DNA from: a phage | DNA: 47,775 bases | Sequence record: PZ445409.1 | Direction: 5' to 3' (one strand) | Shown here: positions 3,695 through 26,557 of the stretch, one piece after another | Position numbering within the stretch: the first letter of the stretch is position 1 | Layout of the letters: each line of letters begins with the position of its first letter | Notes under the pieces: generated by a model | Told to the model about the DNA's origin: nothing | Seen by the model: only the letters and a program-made list of their open reading frames with translations | The model's database searches: none | Position numbers and translations under genes: made by a program

Positions 3695-4810
3695 ATGAAA
3701 GCAAAACAAAGATTTGATAGCGCCAAAGTAAAGGCGCACTTTGATGATAACGGTTTTTTAGTTGATCGCCCTATCGTGGCGCGAATTGGTTTACAAGTCT
3801 ATCAGACTCCTTTCGGTGAGCGCAGAGAATTTCGTCCTGCGTCCGAAGTATTCAAGGCCGACTCACTCGCCACCTTCGCAGGTAAGCCAGTCACGGTTGG
3901 TCACGTTACGGTAACTCCAGAAAACGCCGAAAAGGTTGTGGTTGGTTCTTGTGCTGGCGCTGGTGTGCCGAACGGGATCGGCGTAGAGGTTCCGTTAAGC
4001 ATTTACTCAAAACGAGCAATCGAAAGCGCGAAGAAGCGAGACACTGCTGAAATTTCAGTTGGTTATACATCGGTTGATATTGATAAACCAGGCTGGGGCA
4101 ATAATAAAACTGGTGAGTACGTTTTCGATGAGGATGTTAGCGAAGACTGGAAACCTGATTCTCCTGATTGGGTTAAGTTTGATGCAATCCAGACTGAAAT
4201 CAAGGTAAACCACATCGCTTTAGTTTTCCGAGGTCGAGCCGGTATTGCAAAATTAAACCTTGATAGCCAGCAAGATTTTCCGTATAGTGACGACGTTATT
4301 AACAACAAAGAGGATCAAATCATGACTGTAAAAATTAAACTGGATGGCGCTGTAGAATTTGATGTGCCGAAAGCAGTTGCGGATCACATTGAAACGCTTA
4401 AAGCTGATGCCAAAGCACAGAAAGAAAAGGCGGATGGCCTGGAAGCTGAGCGCGATGCGCTGCAAACCAAAGTAGATGGCATTCAGGATCAGATTGATGC
4501 CGCAGTCAAGAAGGCCAAAGAAGATGCCGAGCAATATGCTCAATTAGTGGCAGACGCTAAAGAGTTAGGCATCAAGTGCGACGGCCTTGATGCGAAAGCA
4601 ATCAAGGTTGCATACATCAAAGAAGTTATGGGTAATGACGTTTCTGATAAAGCTGACGCCTATATCGAAACAGCTTTCGACATCGCCAAAAACTCTGATA
4701 AAATGGCGGCACAGCGTAAGAGCATTAAAGGTGACTCTTTCGCTAATGAAAAACAGGATGACGCAGGTTGCAAGCTGAATCCTAACGCTCGTTTTGAGAA
4801 ACTGAAATAA
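3695..4810 (+). CDS. head scaffolding / prohead protease-like protein
   Basis: 371-aa ORF with AGAGG RBS; C-terminal half K/E/A/D-rich predicted coiled coil; lies between portal-associated and capsid genes. Confidence 0.5.
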   Translation: MKAKQRFDSAKVKAHFDDNGFLVDRPIVARIGLQVYQTPFGERREFRPASEVFKADSLATFAGKPVTVGHVTVTPENAEKVVVGSCAGAGVPNGIGVEVPLSIYSKRAIESAKKRDTAEISVGYTSVDIDKPGWGNNKTGEYVFDEDVSEDWKPDSPDWVKFDAIQTEIKVNHIALVFRGRAGIAKLNLDSQQDFPYSDDVINNKEDQIMTVKIKLDGAVEFDVPKAVADHIETLKADAKAQKEKADGLEAERDALQTKVDGIQDQIDAAVKKAKEDAEQYAQLVADAKELGIKCDGLDAKAIKVAYIKEVMGNDVSDKADAYIETAFDIAKNSDKMAAQRKSIKGDSFANEKQDDAGCKLNPNARFEKLK

Positions 4811-4822
4811 GGAGTAATTAAA

Positions 4823-5332
4823 ATGGCTAAAATTGGAGCAAGTTATTTTGACACTATGGCGCGCGCGCTTCCTGGTCAGGTATCCGACACGTCGGCATAT
4901 AACATCGACGGCGCTTGCGTCCTTGACAAGGAAGACGGCATCCCAATCCTGGTTGGCGTGGCTGTTAAGCTAAAAGGCGTTGACTCAATGGGTAATAAGC
5001 TGATCGACGCTATTTCTGGTGGTGGTGATGTTCCTTATGGCGTTGGCATCCGCTCGCACTTTCAAACTACGGCTGATAATGGTCGAATGGTTTATGAGGC
5101 TGGCGGCGGAATCAACGTTATGACTGAGGGCCGTGTCTGGATGATTGGCGATGATTCCGATAAAAGCAAAAAGCCAGAATATCGTGATCCTGTAAAAATT
5201 GATGAAAACTCTGGCAAGGTGAAAAGTGCTGGCGCTATCAATACAAACTGGGTTTACACTGGCGATAAAACCACTTTTGGAACTGGCAATAATATGTTGA
5301 CTTTGTTTGAAGTTCAGGTCTTCCCAAGCTAA
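4823..5332 (+). CDS. head accessory/decoration protein (paralog 1)
   Basis: 169-aa ORF, AAGGAG RBS; shares YNIDG...GVxIRS...GxVW motifs with the next ORF; hairpin+T-run terminator at 5339-5363. Confidence 0.4.
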   Translation: MAKIGASYFDTMARALPGQVSDTSAYNIDGACVLDKEDGIPILVGVAVKLKGVDSMGNKLIDAISGGGDVPYGVGIRSHFQTTADNGRMVYEAGGGINVMTEGRVWMIGDDSDKSKKPEYRDPVKIDENSGKVKSAGAINTNWVYTGDKTTFGTGNNMLTLFEVQVFPS

Positions 5333-5338
5333 AATCAA

Positions 5339-5363
5339 GGCGCTCGCTTGAGCGCCTTTTTTA
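5339..5363 (+). terminator. intrinsic terminator
   Basis: Hairpin ggcgctcgcttgagcgcc + TTTTTT. Confidence 0.6.
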
Positions 5364-5382
5364 TTATGTAAGGAGAAATGAA

Positions 5383-6165
5383 ATGGCTAAAGATTATTCA
5401 TCTGTCATGGGTCTTTCTTGCCCTGGTTGTTTGGTTGATTCTACTCGCTACAATATTGATGGTACTGGCGTTTGTGGTTCTGAATCGATCATTGCTGGAA
5501 AGGTTGTTTTCTTTAAAGAAAGAGTTGAAGGTTACAACATATTTGTTGATCACAAAGAGGGTGACGCTGTGGTTGCTGGTGTTGCTATAAGGAGCAATAT
5601 CACGACAACGGTTAACGAGGAAGACGGATACTCTGACTATAAGGAAGGAGATTCTATCAACATTTTAACAAGAGGGGTTGTATGGTGCTTAACTCAAACG
5701 ATTGAGTCTGCGCCTGAGCATGGCGATCTTGTTTATGTTAACAATGATGGTTTTGTAGCAAGTAGTGATGGGGATGAAATCGTCGATGGCTGGATTTTTA
5801 CTGGTGACTTTTACAAGTTTGATGAAACAATGAACATAGTCGGAGTCAGAATAACGCCGCTTCATCATAGAAAATACCTTCTTACTGGTGCGATTATTGA
5901 GGCCGAAAATGGTTACGTAGAGGGAACAGAAACAATTGACAACGTTCAGCTAAAAGTAACCGTTGTTCCAACATGGGCTGACGACAAAACGGGGCAGTGG
6001 ACGATTACAAACGAGCAAGATCCAAAGGTTGCAAGCGTTAGTCGCACTGGCCTTGTAGTTCCTACTGGGGTAGGCGGACATGTTAATGTTAACTGGACTG
6101 CAAACGACGGTTCTGGAGTTGCTGATCAGTTTGACATAGTGTTCAGTAAAACAGTAGGCACTTAA
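5383..6165 (+). CDS. head accessory/decoration protein (paralog 2, C-terminal extension)
   Basis: 260-aa ORF, AAGGAG RBS 7 nt upstream; N-terminal half paralogous to 4823-5332; C-terminal about 90 aa beta-rich, possibly Ig-like. Confidence 0.4.
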   Translation: MAKDYSSVMGLSCPGCLVDSTRYNIDGTGVCGSESIIAGKVVFFKERVEGYNIFVDHKEGDAVVAGVAIRSNITTTVNEEDGYSDYKEGDSINILTRGVVWCLTQTIESAPEHGDLVYVNNDGFVASSDGDEIVDGWIFTGDFYKFDETMNIVGVRITPLHHRKYLLTGAIIEAENGYVEGTETIDNVQLKVTVVPTWADDKTGQWTITNEQDPKVASVSRTGLVVPTGVGGHVNVNWTANDGSGVADQFDIVFSKTVGT

Positions 6166-6191
6166 TGAATACCACAAAATAGATTTGCACC

Positions 6192-6208
6192 TTTAACAAA
6201 AAGTGCTA
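6192..6208 (+). promoter_or_regulatory. inverted copy of conserved element upstream of capsid gene
   Basis: TTTAACAAAAAGTGCTA flanked by TTGCAC (6185-6190) and TATCAT (6207-6212) with 16-bp spacing; followed by hairpin+T-run 6215-6241. Confidence 0.45.
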
Positions 6209-6214
6209 TCATGA

Positions 6215-6241
6215 GGCTGTTACTTGTTAACAGCCTTTTTT
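6215..6241 (+). terminator. intrinsic terminator/attenuator immediately upstream of capsid gene
   Basis: Hairpin ggctgtta-cttg-ttaacagcc + TTTTTT, 16 nt before capsid ATG. Confidence 0.5.
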
Positions 6242-6256
6242 ATAGGAGAAAAAATC

Positions 6257-7231
6257 ATGACAAAGAAAAAATATGATGAGCTAGACGCTTCCATTGTGTC
6301 TAATCACCTGCAATTGCAAGGTGTTAAGGGTGATGCTTCCGACATGGGTATTTGGACTGCTCAGGAGTTGCACAAAATCCGATCCACTGCTTACGAAAAA
6401 GAGTATCCAGCGGGTTCTGCGCTTCGCGTCTTCCCTGTCACCAATGAACTGAGCGACACCGACAAAACTTTCGAGTATCAGACTTTTGATAAAGTTGGTT
6501 ACGCGAAAATTATTGCAGACTACACCGACGACCTGCCGACCGTTGACGCTCTTATGACTTCTGAGTTTGGCAAAGTGTTCCGCATGGGTAACGCTTTCCT
6601 GATCTCAATTGACGAAATCAAAGCAGGTCAGCGAACTGGTAAAAGCCTTTCTACTCGCAAGGCTAACGCAGCGCAGAATGCACATGATCAGCTTATTAAC
6701 TTCCTGGTTTTCAAAGGTTCCAAGCCTCATAAGATCGTTTCCGTTTTCGATCATCCAAACCTGACTAAAATCACGTCAAAAGGATGGCTGAGTAAAGACG
6801 GAAACACAAAGTTTCCAGAAGTTGCAAGCGATGAGCTGGAGACTGCAATCGAAACGATCGAGGAAGTAACCAAAGGTCAGCATCGCGCGACTAACATCCT
6901 GATTCCGCCGTCTATGCGTAAAGTCCTTACGGTTCGAATGGAAAATACCACTGAAAGCTATTTGGAATACTTCCAGAAGCAAAACGACGGTATCACCATC
7001 GACTCCATTGCAGAGCTTGAGGATATTGACGGCAAAGGCACTAAAGGCTGCCTGGTTTACGAAAAAGATCCAATGAACATGAGCATTGAGATCCCGGAGG
7101 CATTCAATATGCTGCCTGCACAGCCGAAAGATCTGCATTTTAAAGTTCCTTGTACTTCAAAGTGCACTGGCCTTACAATTTACCGTCCGTTTACGATGGT
7201 TCTAATTACTGGCTTGAAAAAGGCTGCGTAA
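6257..7231 (+). CDS. major capsid protein
   Basis: 324-aa ORF starting at ATG 6257 with AGGAG RBS (track ORF 6224 starts inside a hairpin); position after decoration genes; strong terminator 7243-7272. Confidence 0.7.
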   Translation: MTKKKYDELDASIVSNHLQLQGVKGDASDMGIWTAQELHKIRSTAYEKEYPAGSALRVFPVTNELSDTDKTFEYQTFDKVGYAKIIADYTDDLPTVDALMTSEFGKVFRMGNAFLISIDEIKAGQRTGKSLSTRKANAAQNAHDQLINFLVFKGSKPHKIVSVFDHPNLTKITSKGWLSKDGNTKFPEVASDELETAIETIEEVTKGQHRATNILIPPSMRKVLTVRMENTTESYLEYFQKQNDGITIDSIAELEDIDGKGTKGCLVYEKDPMNMSIEIPEAFNMLPAQPKDLHFKVPCTSKCTGLTIYRPFTMVLITGLKKAA

Positions 7232-7242
7232 TTAGATAACAT

Positions 7243-7272
7243 GGGGAGCCTTAATGGTTCCCCTTTTTTTTA
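7243..7272 (+). terminator. intrinsic terminator after capsid gene
   Basis: Hairpin ggggagccttaatggttcccc + T9. Confidence 0.7.
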
Positions 7273-7289
7273 TTTACGGAGTACACAAA

Positions 7290-7556
7290 ATGAGCAAAAC
7301 TTTAAAACTTAAAGTAACTGGCGTTTGCATGATTATTATGAACGGTAAGCGTTATCATCCTGGTGATGAAATTGAAATTGAATCCGAACGCATTAATGAT
7401 TCCGCAATTGAATACCTGATCGCTCGCGGAGATGTGGAAGTTAAAGACAATTCAGAAATTAACGAGCAAATCAAGGAGAAAGCGGAGAAGAAGCGCAAAA
7501 AAGATCCTACCGAGGGTAAGAGCCGCAAAGAGCTAGAGGATGGCGGCGAATATTAA
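7290..7556 (+). CDS. hypothetical protein (lysine-rich C-terminus)
   Basis: 88-aa ORF from ATG 7290 with GGAG RBS; track start 7254 lies inside the upstream terminator. Confidence 0.5.
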
Positions 7557-7602
7557 TAATTGGGGCGCTTATGCGCCCTTTGTCACATCTGGAGAAAACA
7601 AA

Positions 7603-8022
7603 ATGGTAGATGAATTTTACACAGACGCTGAAATCATGCAGCAAATCGTAAAGTTAGCGCCGCCAATGCAACAAGTTGATCCCGATTTAATTGTGGCATG
7701 GATTGAGCTTGCTAAAGAGTTTGTTTGCAAAAAACGGTTTAAAAACTCATACCCGAAAGCGGTTGCGCTTTACACTCTTCACCTTATGACCTTAGACGGG
7801 GCAATGAAACAGGAAGGTGAAAGCGTAGAAAGCTATTCCCGCCGCGTTGCCTCGTTCACTCTGACTGGTGAGTTTAGTCAGACGTTTGATCGAATTTCTT
7901 CCGATACAAGCGGAAAGCAGATCCGACAAACGCCGTGGGGCAAAATGTACGAAGTGTTAAACCGTAAGCACGGTGGCGGCTTTGGCCTTGTGACTGGATT
8001 GCGCCGGAGATGCTGCCGATGA
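7603..8022 (+). CDS. head-tail connector/adaptor protein (positional)
   Basis: 139-aa ORF from ATG 7603 with GGAG RBS; position between capsid and tail genes. Confidence 0.4.
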
Positions 8023-23465: not shown

Positions 23466-23499
23466 TAACAAAAGCCCCGCATATGCGGGGCATTTTTTT
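23466..23499. terminator. bidirectional intrinsic terminator between ssb and tail-fibre module
   Basis: A-run, hairpin gccccgcatatgcggggc, T7. Confidence 0.65.
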
Positions 23500-24193
23500 A
23501 GTCTAACGTGGTTGGTTTGTTTACCAGTGCCGCTACAACCGCTTTTAGCTCGTCAATTTCTTTTCTCATCTCCTCATTTTCCGCTTTCAGATTCTTGACG
23601 TGGTGAATCAGTGGAACAGTGAGGCGGTCATACATAACGCCTTCCGCCACCATGCCATTACTTGAAGCAATGGCAGGATCTTCTCCTTCTTGCAGCGGTC
23701 GCCAGTGAACGTACTCCGGCGCAACCTCTCCAACTTCCTCTGCAATCAGTCCGTACCATCCCCAATCTTTACGGTCGCTTTCACAAGTTGACCGATACCA
23801 CACAGGACGCATTTCAAGCATCAGATCCGCATATTCATCAATAACCGATTCTACGCTGCGCTTATAACGAGAAGAGGAAGTGGAGCGTAAAACTTGCGAA
23901 ACTCCAGCATTTGGATCAAGCCATAAGTTTGCTGATTGAGCGGTTGTGTTGAGTCTAAACAAATAAAATGCCTCGTTACCAGTCAGGGGGTAAAAACTGC
24001 CACTATACCTTCCGCTTTCCAACTCGGATGATAGATCAGTTTGTTTTAGATACGGTTTCAATTTATTTTCAACATCAGTAGTTGATGCTTTTCCGGCAAC
24101 ATCCTGTTTTAGTGTCGAAACATCCTGATTTATCGTAGAAACATCATTTTTTAGCTTCGTTATATCACTAGGTATAACAGTTACTGTAGCCAT
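23498..24193 (-). CDS. tail fibre-like protein with C-terminal intramolecular chaperone (S74-like) domain
   Basis: 231-aa ORF, AAGGAG RBS; C-terminus has SDRKDWGWYGLIAEEVGEVAPEYV segment and coiled coil typical of auto-cleaving fibre chaperone domains. Confidence 0.55.
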   Translation of the reverse strand: MATVTVIPSDITKLKNDVSTINQDVSTLKQDVAGKASTTDVENKLKPYLKQTDLSSELESGRYSGSFYPLTGNEAFYLFRLNTTAQSANLWLDPNAGVSQVLRSTSSSRYKRSVESVIDEYADLMLEMRPVWYRSTCESDRKDWGWYGLIAEEVGEVAPEYVHWRPLQEGEDPAIASSNGMVAEGVMYDRLTVPLIHHVKNLKAENEEMRKEIDELKAVVAALVNKPTTLD

Positions 24194-24205
24194 TTTCCTA
24201 ACTCC

Positions 24206-24484
24206 TTAAGCCCATTCTCTAATAGGCTGATCTAACTCAACCACGTAGTCGTTAAAAATTACGGCATCAAACTTATCATCAATGATTCGCACATTGACGA
24301 AATAGCCGTCGTTCTTTTGCGCAATCTCCTCGCCATCGTCAGATCGTGCAATTACTGTGTAAGTAGTGCCGATTACATCAAGCATGATAGCGTTTTGAAG
24401 CTCATCATTATCATGCCATTCGATTTCGTCCAGAAAGGCGGAAAACTCCGCCTTGTCTACAAATTTCAGTGTTAAATCGCGCAT
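24206..24484 (-). CDS. hypothetical small protein (fibre-associated)
   Basis: 92-aa ORF from ATG 24484 with TAATG overlap to tail fibre stop (track start 24625 lies inside the fibre gene). Confidence 0.45.
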   Translation of the reverse strand: MRDLTLKFVDKAEFSAFLDEIEWHDNDELQNAIMLDVIGTTYTVIARSDDGEEIAQKNDGYFVNVRIIDDKFDAVIFNDYVVELDQPIREWA

Positions 24485-26451
24485 TATACAATTTCCCCTA
24501 ATTGATGATCTGTTAATTCTTTGTGCCAAATACGCAAGTTCTTGACGTGTCCGAAAAGATGGAGTTCGCCTGTACTTGTTTGTCCGCCAATCCTTATAGT
24601 AGCCGTTGATACTATATATCTCCATTCCGTTTTTGTTTCGCTTGATATTCTGGCATTACTTACACAACAAGTATTGTAATCACTCTTTACTCTCATTCCT
24701 ATGATCATCTTTTTTAGTTTCGCATTCTCGTTAACCCTTCTGTTTGATTTACCTATATCGCAATAAGGGAATCCATCAGCATCGCCTTCGGCAGACCCGA
24801 AAGCAAGAATAATTCCCGCACCAGATTGATGACCTCCAGTATCGAAAACACGAGGCGCAGCATTTGGCGTTCTACTCCAGTTTTTATGAGCCTCCACAAG
24901 AACTGTAAACGGCAAATTGTAAAGGTTGTTTTTTATTGGCACTGTAACCATATCGCTTGCCCTTGTAACTGGCTTATCGCCAGTTACAATTAAAGACGAA
25001 GCAGATGATCCGTTTTCAACTTGGGCGGTAGCTAGAGTCATAAATTGACCTGCGGTAACATCCTGACCTTCCCTTGCTGCCATCTCAACGCGAGCATACA
25101 TCTTTATATCTTCTGGTGCTTTATATGTACCCTGGAATAATACCCATCCACCTGATTCCTGCTTCACATCATACGTCAACTTATTTCCTCCAGTCACATC
25201 AAGAGTGACAAGATCTAACATCACGTCAGCTATAAATGTGTTTCCCTGCCCATCAGGATTTAGCTTGGAGAATCGCAATCTTAACCTAACTGGTGAAGAA
25301 TATTCCTCGCCGATTCTTGCGCGTATTGAGATAGTACCATACTCACCATTCGCAACATCCACTACGCGAGATACACCAGTTGAAATTGCTGTAATCGGTA
25401 CAGTATCTTGACTTTCTTTATAAGTAAATTTAGCGGAAGTTATACCAAATTCATCTGTAGAATTAGCGGATACGTCCAACCTATTTAAGTTTCTATTCCA
25501 TTTGTCCGGTGAATTGCTATTACTGAAGTTGTTTGTTCTCTGCCCTTCAATCAGCAATCCATCTCTTTCAAAACGTGGTTCATCAATTGCTGCAACGGTA
25601 AGAATACCTGATTTGTTAATGTATGTTGCAGTTGATGCACGTTTAAATTTGACAATCTTGTCGCCCGGCATCGTGATCTCATCGTCACCTATGACAATCT
25701 TTTTGTATGACGGCGAGAATCCGGTAATCATATCCAGGGAATCATTAAATGGTATCCACACGTCCGGCAACGGTTGCAATAAGTCTTTGTAAGGTTCTGC
25801 GGCCTGCTTTGCGTATTCCTCCGCTTGATCTCGCGCACTTTCAGCTCCTGCCTTTGCAGTTTTCGCAGCGTCACGCGCGGATTCAGCGCCAGACTTTGCT
25901 GCTTCAGCGCCAGTCTTTGCAGTGTTTGCAGCGTCGCGCGCGGATTCAGCGGCAGCCTTTGCAGTATCAGCGCCTTTCTTGCTATTCGCTGCATTTGTTG
26001 CGCTTGTCTTCGCGCTATTCTCGCTGGTTTTAGCTGCCTGCTGGCTTGCTGCTGCTGCGTCAGCATTTGTCTTTACGTCTTCTTGGATCTTCTGTAGCTT
26101 ATCCCAATCAAAATCCTTGATGATCTCAATAAATCCAGCAAGCTCCGACTCTTTCCCCATGTAGTAGCGCAATGTTTCCGCTACGTCTTGCGCCAGGCCA
26201 TCAACAGTTAACGAGTCATGAAGCAAGATTATGTAGTCTGAACGGGGAACAACAGCACCACCAGTGGTGATTGCTCGAATGCTAGTATCGTTGACCACTT
26301 CGGTGATAACTGCGGCCTGTAGCGGCTGTGTCAGAAAAATAATGGTTGCGCCGGAACGGATCAGCGTTAACTGCTCACGCCAGTTCGTCCCGTAGCCAGT
26401 TATATAGCCTTGAGCGTCCATTGACGCTTGACCTTTGCGATAAATTGCCAT
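24484..26451 (-). CDS. side (L-shaped-like) tail fibre protein
   Basis: 655-aa ORF from ATG 26451 with AGGAGA RBS; Ala/Lys/Glu-rich coiled-coil segment after a conserved-looking N-terminal domain; beta-rich distal part. Confidence 0.65.
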   Translation of the reverse strand: MAIYRKGQASMDAQGYITGYGTNWREQLTLIRSGATIIFLTQPLQAAVITEVVNDTSIRAITTGGAVVPRSDYIILLHDSLTVDGLAQDVAETLRYYMGKESELAGFIEIIKDFDWDKLQKIQEDVKTNADAAAASQQAAKTSENSAKTSATNAANSKKGADTAKAAAESARDAANTAKTGAEAAKSGAESARDAAKTAKAGAESARDQAEEYAKQAAEPYKDLLQPLPDVWIPFNDSLDMITGFSPSYKKIVIGDDEITMPGDKIVKFKRASTATYINKSGILTVAAIDEPRFERDGLLIEGQRTNNFSNSNSPDKWNRNLNRLDVSANSTDEFGITSAKFTYKESQDTVPITAISTGVSRVVDVANGEYGTISIRARIGEEYSSPVRLRLRFSKLNPDGQGNTFIADVMLDLVTLDVTGGNKLTYDVKQESGGWVLFQGTYKAPEDIKMYARVEMAAREGQDVTAGQFMTLATAQVENGSSASSLIVTGDKPVTRASDMVTVPIKNNLYNLPFTVLVEAHKNWSRTPNAAPRVFDTGGHQSGAGIILAFGSAEGDADGFPYCDIGKSNRRVNENAKLKKMIIGMRVKSDYNTCCVSNARISSETKTEWRYIVSTATIRIGGQTSTGELHLFGHVKNLRIWHKELTDHQLGEIV

Positions 26452-26469
26452 CTGTAATTTTCTCCTGTA

Positions 26470-26488
26470 TAGCACTTTTTGCTAATGA
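26470..26488 (-). promoter_or_regulatory. inverted copy of conserved element abutting RBS of side tail fibre gene
   Basis: Coding (minus) strand reads TCATTAGCAAAAAGTGCTA then tACAGGAGA RBS then ATG at 26451. Confidence 0.45.
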
Positions 26489-26516: not shown

Positions 26517-26541
26517 AAAAAAAAACCCCGCATAAGCGGGG
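26517..26541 (-). terminator. intrinsic terminator (minus strand) after primase
   Basis: Plus strand A9 + ccccgcataagcgggg; on minus strand hairpin then T-run. Confidence 0.6.
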
Positions 26542-26557
26542 TAATACTAGCGGAGTT

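What the first reader, a model, noticed from the sequence alone, without database searches (positions are those of the whole stretch)
23498..26451. Oppositely oriented tail-fibre module with a stand-alone chaperone-domain protein
Between ssb and primase, on the minus strand, lie a 655-aa side tail fibre (coiled-coil shaft, beta-rich tip), a 92-aa ORF coupled by TAATG, and a 231-aa protein whose C-terminus has the SD...GLIAEEVGEVAPEYV segment typical of auto-cleaving intramolecular chaperone domains that normally terminate long fibres. Here the chaperone-type domain is attached to a short N-terminal part rather than to the large fibre, suggesting a separate receptor-binding or adhesin protein or a modular swap. 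The fibre gene start is immediately preceded by an inverted copy of the conserved element.
Basis: partly seen in the sequence, partly recalled or inferred. Interest (0 to 1): 0.4.

Follow-up and report, generated by a model that had tools for sequence, protein, structure and literature searches.

The report
Two-part lateral tail fibre cassette
This is the already annotated lateral tail-fibre locus of the T1-like coliphage PeterMerian, and its small "chaperone-domain" protein is most likely a stripped-down outer fibre segment that plugs onto the main fibre, not a free-standing chaperone.

Summary
The window is the complete genome of Escherichia phage PeterMerian (BASEL Bas05). Three minus-strand genes lie between ssb and primase. 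GenBank names them "lateral tail fiber protein" (655 aa), "hypothetical protein" (92 aa) and "putative lateral tail fiber chaperone" (231 aa).

The three genes form a cassette that also occurs in lambdoid, T5-like, Queuovirinae and Dhillonvirus phages. The third gene always starts with M-x-T-x-T-x-IP-x-DIT-x-LK and ranges from 98 to 586 aa. In T5-like IrisVonRoten, the homologous trio was modelled in print as a proximal fibre with a galectin-like end, plus an attached distal fibre that ends in the chaperone domain.

PeterMerian's 231-aa protein is therefore best read as a near-minimal distal subunit: adaptor, short trimeric coiled coil, 45-residue stub, and a self-cleaving chaperone. Attachment and cleavage are inferred, not shown.

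It is an ordinary, known kind of locus. The modest new point is the re-reading of one annotation.

The parts
26525..26542 (-). Intrinsic terminator after the primase gene (ACCCCGCTTATGCGGGGT followed by T9). It separates primase from the fibre operon.
26469..26485 (-). Copy of the genome-wide conserved element (TTAGCAAAAAGTGCTAT), 17 nt upstream of the fibre ATG and next to its Shine-Dalgarno sequence. Its role is unknown; it may be regulatory.
   Evidence: 15 copies against 0.38 expected, and this copy has 1 mismatch.
24484..26451 (-). Gene 1: lateral tail fibre, proximal subunit, 655 aa. Residues 1-120 are the virion anchor. Residues about 125-228 are an Ala-rich coiled-coil shaft. Residues about 230-655 are a conserved distal module with two beta-sandwich lectin-like domains.
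   Evidence: It is 100% identical to PeterMerian 'lateral tail fiber protein'.
24958..25554 (-). First lectin-like beta-sandwich of the fibre (residues about 300-498; GTA_spike_fiber domain). It contains hypervariable segment 321-480.
   Evidence: NF048003 at E 1.2e-14, 55 bits against a cut-off of 36. pLDDT is about 90. Folds matched are LamG, galectin, CBM and phage Pa193/E217 fibres. Mosaic variation is shown.
24487..24933 (-). Second beta-rich region of the fibre (residues about 507-655). It contains hypervariable segment 521-640 and the conserved end ...RIWHKELTDHQLGEIV.
   Evidence: pLDDT 55-70 only.
24206..24484 (-). Gene 2: 92-aa acidic protein (pI 4.05), translationally coupled to the fibre through TAATG. 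It always follows this type of fibre gene. Its role is unknown; it may be an assembly factor or a connector.
   Evidence: phrog_1361, E 9e-35; 179 phage records.
23498..24193 (-). Gene 3: 231-aa protein, interpreted as a near-minimal distal fibre subunit.
24149..24193 (-). N-terminal adaptor motif MATVTVIPSDITKLK (residues 1-15). Every gene-3 protein of this cassette type shares it.
24020..24172 (-). Heptad-repeat coiled coil (residues about 8-58). Hydrophobic a/d positions are 11, 14, 18, 21, 25, 28 and 32. Length among relatives varies in steps of 7 residues (224, 231 and 245 aa).
23501..23878 (-). Peptidase_S74 intramolecular chaperone domain (residues 106-231). Self-cleavage is predicted between T105 and S106. 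The proposed catalytic pair is S106 and K111. The domain ends in a long helix, 188-224.
23474..23491 (.). Bidirectional intrinsic terminator (GCCCCGCATATGCGGGGC) shared by ssb (+) and the fibre operon (-).

Best explanation
The region is the lateral tail-fibre operon of a T1-like phage. It is built from a three-gene cassette that is exchanged horizontally.

Gene 1 makes the proximal fibre. It has a family-specific N-terminal anchor, a trimeric Ala-rich coiled coil, and a distal module of two lectin-like beta-sandwich domains. The host-range variation sits in that distal module, which probably binds surface glycans.

Gene 2 (92 aa) is an accessory protein of that distal module.

Gene 3 (231 aa) is the distal subunit in near-minimal form. 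Its C-terminal S74 domain trimerises and folds its own N-terminal part. It then cuts itself off between T105 and S106, using S106 and K111. The product is a trimer of about 11.5 kDa per chain: a short coiled coil plus a 45-residue beta stub.

That trimer is held on the far end of the proximal fibre, or on gene 2 protein, by the conserved N-terminal adaptor MATVTVIPSDITKLK.

Shown here: gene structure, domain identity, conservation of the catalytic pair, purifying selection, cassette synteny, and sharing of the adaptor. Inferred: cleavage, trimer state, attachment, and presence in the virion.
For: 1) The S74 domain is genuine. S106 is conserved in over 90% of 38 homologues, and K111 is invariant.

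2) Selection is purifying. dN/dS is 0.15 for gene 3 (0.08 in the S74 core), 0.13 for gene 2 and 0.30 for gene 1.

3) The same gene order, with homologous parts, is found in several groups:
- lambdoid phages and E. coli prophages, in the stf/tfa position after J and lom;
- a 60.8-kb phage contig;
- Seuratvirus KurtStettler and T5-like HMD-P4;
- T5-like IrisVonRoten and Dhillonvirus KarlBarth.

4) Gene-3 proteins of 98 to 586 aa all begin with M[AVT]T[VKS]T[VIN]IPxDI[TK]xLK. In 74 assessable IMG/VR loci, 30 have such a gene directly after gene 2. The other 44 have a small membrane protein there instead. None has a fibre-like ORF without the motif.

5) The window's proteins match the IrisVonRoten trio. 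The fibre (residues 183-655) is 58% identical to Gp22. The 92-aa protein is 50% identical to Gp23. Residues 1-33 of gene 3 are 52% identical to the start of Gp24. The BASEL-2 paper (PMC11990801) models Gp24 as a distal fibre ending in the chaperone domain, attached to proximal fibre Gp22, whose galectin-like domain protrudes at its C-terminus.

6) The fibre's distal half is all-beta and matches phage tail-fibre, LamG, galectin and CBM folds.

7) Phage 21 and 44 of the 74 IMG/VR loci have genes 1 and 2 without gene 3. The proximal fibre therefore does not need gene 3 to be made.
Against: There are no experimental data for this phage: no virion proteomics and no cleavage assay.

The attachment model for the IrisVonRoten homologues is itself an AlphaFold-Multimer prediction.

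The AF2 monomer model of residues 1-100 has low confidence (pLDDT below 50).

The mature part has no domain large enough to be an obvious receptor binder, and it is not hypervariable. What a 'distal subunit' adds here is therefore unclear.

The gene carries frameshifts in a few deposited relatives: orkinos and AV105 at a C5 run, and JLBYU10. It may therefore be dispensable on K-12, or these may be sequencing errors.

The Pfam score is only just above its cut-off.
Confidence: 0.55

Rival explanations
1. Trans-acting assembly chaperone, as the GenBank name 'putative lateral tail fiber chaperone' implies. The 231-aa protein, perhaps with the 92-aa protein, would help the 655-aa fibre trimerise or fold and would not end up in the virion.
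For: The S74 domain is a known folding and trimerisation chaperone (fold matches). The N-terminal part is short and lacks an evident receptor-binding domain. The protein stays conserved while the fibre's variable segments change, as expected for a factor acting on a conserved framework. Genes 2 and 3 occupy the place of tfa in lambdoid phages.
Against: From established knowledge of endosialidase, GA-1 and T5 Ltf, S74 domains act in cis on the chain they terminate. Fibres of the same type exist with gene 2 but without gene 3, in phage 21 and in 44 of 74 IMG/VR loci. The N-terminal adaptor is shared with large distal fibres that carry receptor-binding domains, such as IrisVonRoten Gp24 (574 aa) and the 576-586-aa forms. 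No Tfa/Caudo_TAP family match was found.
Confidence: 0.2
2. Independent short fibre or whisker. The matured trimer would attach somewhere else on the tail or neck, not on the lateral fibre, and act as a separate adhesin or sensor.
For: It has fibre-like architecture: a coiled coil plus the chaperone domain.
Against: The gene and its N-terminal motif occur only directly after genes 1 and 2 of this cassette. The carrier phages have unrelated tails: T1-like, lambda-like, T5-like and Queuovirinae. That argues for docking on a cassette component, not on a tail protein. There is no hypervariability.
Confidence: 0.12
3. Non-functional remnant of a module swap. The original C-terminus of a long S74-terminated fibre would have been left behind when a new lectin-type tip was recombined in.
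For: phrog_3299 aligns the whole protein to the last 218 positions of a 1385-position profile. Single-chain fibres ending in S74 exist in other Drexlerviridae, namely SH6 ORF54 (PMC5238451) and Bas07 Gp36. Some relatives carry frameshifts.
Against: dN/dS is 0.15, and 0.08 in the catalytic core. The gene has its own strong Shine-Dalgarno sequence. It is conserved as an intact stand-alone gene across distant phage families and in thousands of E. coli prophage copies; clusters P0022 and P0023 have 2928 and 650 members. Length changes keep the heptad register.
Confidence: 0.05

Closest known systems
IrisVonRoten (Bas32, Tequintavirus) lateral fibre genes bas32_0022/0023/0024 (Gp22, Gp23, Gp24), as modelled in the BASEL-2 paper (PMC11990801)
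   Same: The gene order and homology match. The distal module of gene 1 is 58% identical, gene 2 is 50% identical, and gene 3 starts with the same adaptor and ends in an S74 chaperone domain. The published model has a proximal fibre with a galectin-like C-terminal domain plus an attached distal fibre.
   Different: Gp24 is 574 aa and carries two receptor-binding domains (the 'T-shaped' fibre). The window's gene 3 is 231 aa, with only about 45 residues between the coiled coil and the cleavage site. The N-terminal anchor of gene 1 is T5-type there and T1-type here.
Phage T5 L-shaped tail fibre pb1 (Ltf) with its C-terminal intramolecular chaperone (PDB 4uw8)
   Different: In T5 a single long chain carries the anchor, shaft, tip and chaperone. 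Here the chaperone sits on a separate small protein, and the main fibre ends in lectin-like domains without one.
DT57C/DT571-2 branched fibres LtfA and LtfB (PMC4728585, PMC10713586)
   Same: The principle is the same. A second fibre protein is carried by the first through a short conserved N-terminal segment of about 45 residues, and S74 domains are cleaved off.
   Different: The docking modules differ: the LtfB N-terminus resembles phiEco32 gp15, not MATVTVIP. LtfA itself ends in S74. That system has no 92-aa gene between the two.
Endosialidase (K1F endoNF) and GA-1 neck-appendage C-terminal chaperone domains (3gw6, 3gud), and the eukaryotic MyRF ICA domain (7dc3)
   Different: Those domains terminate large enzymes, appendages or a transcription factor. 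Here the passenger is only 105 residues.
Lambda Stf/Tfa-type side tail fibre with a separate assembly protein
   Same: In lambdoid relatives the genomic position is the same, after J and lom. The fibre gene is followed by small accessory genes.
   Different: There is no sequence or family match to Tfa/Caudo_TAP. The accessory genes are a 92-aa protein and an S74-domain protein.

Membership tests
Peptidase_S74 / intramolecular chaperone auto-processing domain (PF13884) | Sequence match to the family model at or above the curated threshold | tested here: met
   22.6 bits against a gathering score of 22, covering residues 106-162 and profile positions 1-57 of 58. The margin is small. Many homologues carry a precomputed PF13884 hit.
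Peptidase_S74 / intramolecular chaperone auto-processing domain (PF13884) | Fold of the solved domains: a small beta core plus a long C-terminal helix | tested here: met
Peptidase_S74 / intramolecular chaperone auto-processing domain (PF13884) | Nucleophile Ser at the first residue of the domain, with Lys five residues later (Ser-x4-Lys) | tested here: met
   The motif S106-S-S-R-Y-K111 aligns to profile position 1. In 38 homologues S106 is over 90% conserved and K111 is invariant. The same spacing occurs in the SDRDLK and SDSRLK motifs of larger gene-3 proteins.
Peptidase_S74 / intramolecular chaperone auto-processing domain (PF13884) | Autoproteolytic release after trimer folding | not testable with these tools
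   This needs expression with S106A and K111A mutants, or mass spectrometry.
Two-subunit lateral tail fibre cassette of the IrisVonRoten Gp22/Gp23/Gp24 type | Gene order: fibre with a conserved lectin-type distal module, then an 85-93-aa protein, then an adaptor-bearing protein | tested here: met
   Identities are 56-58% for gene 1, 50-55% for gene 2, and 52-71% over the first 31-33 residues of gene 3.
Two-subunit lateral tail fibre cassette of the IrisVonRoten Gp22/Gp23/Gp24 type | The N-terminal adaptor motif of gene 3 is tied to the position after gene 2 | tested here: met
   30 of 30 fibre-like ORFs found after gene 2 in IMG/VR loci carry the motif. The other 44 loci have no gene 3.
Two-subunit lateral tail fibre cassette of the IrisVonRoten Gp22/Gp23/Gp24 type | Physical attachment of the gene-3 trimer to the gene-1 fibre | not testable with these tools
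   Only monomer prediction was available. The published support is an AlphaFold-Multimer model of the homologues (PMC11990801).
Two-subunit lateral tail fibre cassette of the IrisVonRoten Gp22/Gp23/Gp24 type | The distal subunit carries a receptor-binding domain | tested here: not met
   Only about 45 residues lie between the coiled coil and the cleavage site. There is no domain hit and no hypervariability. This is why it is described as a minimal variant.
Tfa / Caudo_TAP tail fibre assembly chaperones | Sequence membership of the 92-aa or the 231-aa protein | tested here: not met
   No Pfam or NCBIfam hit for the 92-aa protein, even at E up to 10. No PDB sequence relative was found.
Drexlerviridae lateral tail fibre locus (BASEL paper PMC8594841, S1C Fig) | Position between the recombination genes/ssb and primase, with only the N-terminus of the large fibre conserved across the family | tested here: met
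   Synteny with T1, SLUR29, tunus and KarlJaspers. The N-terminal 1-175 residues are shared even with Klebsiella phage depolymerases. The paper text is quoted.

The most novel reading that the evidence does not exclude
Gene 3's N-terminal adaptor, together with the conserved end of gene 1 and/or the 92-aa protein, may form a universal plug-and-socket joint. At least five families of enterobacterial phages would use it. PeterMerian-type phages and thousands of E. coli prophages would keep an 'empty plug': a distal subunit with no receptor-binding domain. It would be retained either because a docked trimer is needed to cap or stabilise the lectin-bearing fibre end, or as a ready acceptor for new binding domains through recombination.
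Probability: 0.25. Interest if true: 0.5.

Novelty: new member of a known kind. Interest (0 to 1): 0.25.

Why it matters
Lateral fibres decide which O-antigen-bearing strains T1-like, T5-like and lambdoid phages can reach. If the small S74 protein is a docked distal segment and not a chaperone, the GenBank label on dozens of phages misleads. It would also mean one short adaptor motif defines a portable joint for swapping distal fibre modules between unrelated phages, which would help host-range engineering. As a discovery it is incremental. The locus, its variability, the chaperone-domain annotation and the two-part architecture of a homologous cassette are all already in the literature or in GenBank.

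Tried and rejected
- A profile of 38 homologues searched against PDB sequences gave no hit. The link to solved chaperone domains is visible only at fold level.
- The 1.84-billion-protein search with residues 1-105 mostly returned unrelated coiled-coil proteins and added little.
- I considered stop-codon read-through fusing the 92-aa and 231-aa ORFs, because they are in frame with a 12-nt gap here. I rejected it: in KarlJaspers the frames differ once the start is corrected, and the stop is TAA followed by G.
- I considered direct homology of gene 3 to DT57C LtfB. I rejected it because LtfB has a different N-terminal docking segment and LtfA ends in S74.
- I rejected the remnant hypothesis on dN/dS and cross-family conservation.
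- No family or solved relative was found for the 92-aa protein. I did not predict its structure, because both prediction slots were used for gene 3 and the fibre.
- I tried to read the conserved element as a sigma-70 promoter. In copies followed by TATAAT-like boxes, the spacing to TTGTTA is 21-23 nt. In copies next to start codons, a TGnTATAAG-type -10 box would overlap the Shine-Dalgarno sequence. I reached no conclusion.
- Literature searches found no virion proteomics for a Warwickvirus or Hanrivervirus.
Full report
**Identity of the window**

The window is a T1-like phage genome. The 3.2-kb region matches Warwickvirus genomes (Drexlerviridae, Tempevirinae) at about 90-97% DNA identity. 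The three proteins of the finding are 100% identical to proteins of Escherichia phage PeterMerian (BASEL Bas05), on a contig of exactly 47,775 bp.

GenBank names them 'lateral tail fiber protein', 'hypothetical protein bas05_0030' and 'putative lateral tail fiber chaperone'. The BASEL paper (PMC8594841) already describes this locus. It lies between the recombination genes and primase/helicase, it is the highly variable lateral tail-fibre locus of Drexlerviridae, and only the N-terminus of the large fibre is conserved across the family.

T1 itself has the same minus-strand block: regulator, primase, fibre. It has a single fibre gene and no S74 protein.

**Checking the observation**

The ORFs are exactly as stated.
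- The fibre is 24484-26451 (-), 655 aa.
- The 92-aa ORF is 24206-24484 (-), and its ATG overlaps the fibre's TAA (TAATG).
- The 231-aa ORF is 23498-24193 (-). It lies 12 nt after the 92-aa stop and has AAGGAG 8 nt upstream.

A bidirectional terminator (23474-23491) closes the operon against ssb. A terminator at 26525-26542 follows primase.

The 'conserved element' is a 17-21-nt motif, TTAACAAAAAGTGCTAT. It has 15 copies against 0.38 expected by chance. One copy with a single mismatch lies at 26469-26485 (-), 17 nt upstream of the fibre ATG.

**The chaperone domain is real**

- Pfam PF13884 scores 22.6 bits, just above its cut-off of 22, over residues 106-162.
- PHROG tail-fibre families match strongly.
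- An AF2 model built on 38 homologues is confident for residues 110-225.
- Foldseek puts the MyRF ICA domain first.

The alignment shows the motif R-S-T-S-S-x-R-Y-K. S106 is over 90% conserved and K111 is invariant. This is the Ser-x4-Lys arrangement of the family, so cleavage is predicted between T105 and S106.

**The main fibre**

Residues 1-175 match the N-termini of Klebsiella siphophage depolymerases 7vyv/7lzj at E 1e-50. This is the family's virion anchor. An Ala-rich shaft follows and contains a 63-nt tandem repeat.

The distal half matches NCBIfam GTA_spike_fiber (residues 300-498). It folds as all-beta sandwiches. These resemble the tail fibres of phages Pa193 and E217, and LamG, galectin and CBM domains.

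Among nine relatives, two segments (321-480 and 521-640) fall to 12-50% identity, in a mosaic pattern. The rest stays at 75-100%. These segments are the likely specificity determinants.

**Is the small protein functional?**

Pairwise Nei-Gojobori dN/dS over ten phages:

| Gene | dN/dS |
|---|---|
| Fibre (gene 1) | 0.30 |
| 92-aa gene (gene 2) | 0.13 |
| 231-aa gene (gene 3) | 0.15 |
| S74 core of gene 3 | 0.08 |

Gene 3 length varies in 7-residue steps (224, 231 and 245 aa), through gain or loss of heptads. Residues 11-32 show a clean a/d heptad pattern. This is not a decaying remnant.

A few deposited relatives carry frameshifts. Orkinos and AV105 have one at a C5 run, and JLBYU10 has one elsewhere. 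These could be sequencing errors, or losses on O-antigen-free laboratory hosts.

**The wider context decides the interpretation**

The same trio occurs in several phage groups:
- lambdoid phages and E. coli prophages, in the stf/tfa position after J and lom;
- a 60.8-kb phage contig;
- Seuratvirus KurtStettler and T5-like HMD-P4;
- T5-like IrisVonRoten and Dhillonvirus KarlBarth.

Across these, three things hold.
- Gene 1 keeps a 430-aa distal module under different anchors.
- Gene 2 stays at 85-93 aa.
- Gene 3 always begins M[AVT]T[VKS]T[VIN]IPxDI[TK]xLK and ranges from 98 to 586 aa. It mostly ends in an S74 domain.

I examined the best 80 of 265 IMG/VR loci holding a gene-2 homologue, and 74 were assessable. 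Thirty have a motif-bearing gene 3 directly downstream. Forty-four have a 97-aa membrane protein there instead, as in phage 21. None has a fibre-like ORF lacking the motif.

Gene 2 therefore belongs with gene 1. Gene 3 is an optional, exchangeable add-on defined by its N-terminal adaptor.

**Link to published work**

The BASEL-2 paper (PMC11990801) used AlphaFold-Multimer on IrisVonRoten. It describes Gp22 as a proximal fibre with a galectin-like domain protruding at its C-terminus. It describes Gp24 as a 'T-shaped' distal fibre, with two receptor-binding domains and a C-terminal chaperone domain, attached to the proximal fibre.

The window's proteins are homologous to this trio:

| Window protein | IrisVonRoten partner | Identity |
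|---|---|---|
| Fibre, residues 183-655 | Gp22 | 58% |
| 92-aa protein | Gp23 | 50% |
| Gene 3, residues 1-33 | Gp24, N-terminus | 52% |

By homology and synteny, PeterMerian's 231-aa protein is the distal subunit reduced to an adaptor, a short coiled coil, a 45-residue stub and the chaperone domain.

**Mechanism and what remains inferred**

The proposed steps for gene 3 are:
1. The S74 domain trimerises the chain and folds the N-terminal 105 residues.
2. It removes itself at T105/S106.
3. The 11.5-kDa-per-chain trimer stays docked on the fibre end through the adaptor.

Shown: domain identity, conservation of the catalytic pair, purifying selection, cassette structure, and adaptor sharing. Inferred: cleavage, trimer state, docking partner (gene 1 or gene 2), and presence in virions.

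The main rival is the trans-chaperone reading implied by the GenBank name. It is weakened in two ways. Fibres of this type exist without gene 3. The adaptor is also shared with large distal fibres that carry receptor-binding domains. It is not excluded. I found no proteomic data for this genus.

**Verdict**

The locus is ordinary for this phage family and already annotated. The modest addition is the re-reading of the 'chaperone' as a minimal distal fibre subunit, and the recognition of a conserved adaptor across several phage families.

Noticed in passing
window 1566, 6193, 9951, 20743, 26469, 28031, 30520, 31591, 34837, 37001, 37678, 40087, 41171, 42502, 45123 (17-nt cores): A near-palindromic element, TTAACAAAAAGTGCTAT (core TAGCA-N5-TGCTA in some copies), occurs 15 times against 0.38 expected. 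About 11 copies read ATAGCAC... in the direction of transcription. In several of these the TAG or TAA stop of the upstream gene lies inside or beside the element, and a GC hairpin and a TATAAT-like box often follow. In four copies (6193, 9951, 26469 and 28031) the opposite orientation ends 12-18 nt before a start codon. The spacing does not fit a standard sigma-70 promoter. It may be a phage-specific regulatory or operator site.
   Followed up: partly
window 25840-25965: Two tandem 63-nt (21-aa) repeats, 84% identical, lie in the Ala-rich coiled-coil shaft of the fibre gene. Related genomes annotate a 'repeat_region' at the equivalent place.
   Followed up: no
window 25012-25491 and 24532-24891 (fibre residues 321-480 and 521-640): These two segments of the fibre are hypervariable and assort independently among Warwickviruses in a mosaic pattern. 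WaterSpirit keeps the first and changes the second. BEBK14 and tunus do the reverse.
   Followed up: partly
window 23986-23990 (C5 run in the 231-aa gene); L011, L016, L017: The homologous gene is frameshifted in phages orkinos and AV105 by C5 to C6 at this run. The two phages have different flanking polymorphisms. JLBYU10 carries a +2 insertion elsewhere. These are either homopolymer sequencing errors or recurrent loss on K-12 hosts.
   Followed up: partly
L022 (phage 21) 3792-4085; L005 2951-3244; 44 IMG/VR loci (e.g. L028): In lambdoid phages a conserved 97-aa predicted membrane protein (MDISPLLHALCAVAAQ...) follows the fibre cassette. It comes directly after gene 2 when gene 3 is absent, and after gene 3 when it is present. 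Its function is unknown.
   Followed up: no
L020 (KurtStettler) 5001-6533 compared with L007 2584-3420: KurtStettler's 510-aa 'putative lateral tail fiber chaperone' looks like a fusion. Its S74 domain loses the usual C-terminal helix and runs into a Gly-rich sequence. In the 60.8-kb contig L007, that Gly-rich sequence is a separate downstream ORF.
   Followed up: no
L004 (KarlJaspers) 5836-7660: Hanrivervirus KarlJaspers carries four extra genes between the S74-protein gene and ssb, including a 'putative sugar-binding protein'. They are absent from the window.
   Followed up: no
L024 (JeffSchatz, Vequintavirus) 4501-4833 and other rV5-like phages: Distant homologues of the 92-aa protein (about 30% identity, 110 aa) follow a 1479-aa lateral fibre. 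That fibre's C-terminal module is 40% identical to the window's fibre. The gene 1 plus gene 2 pair therefore extends to large myoviruses.
   Followed up: partly
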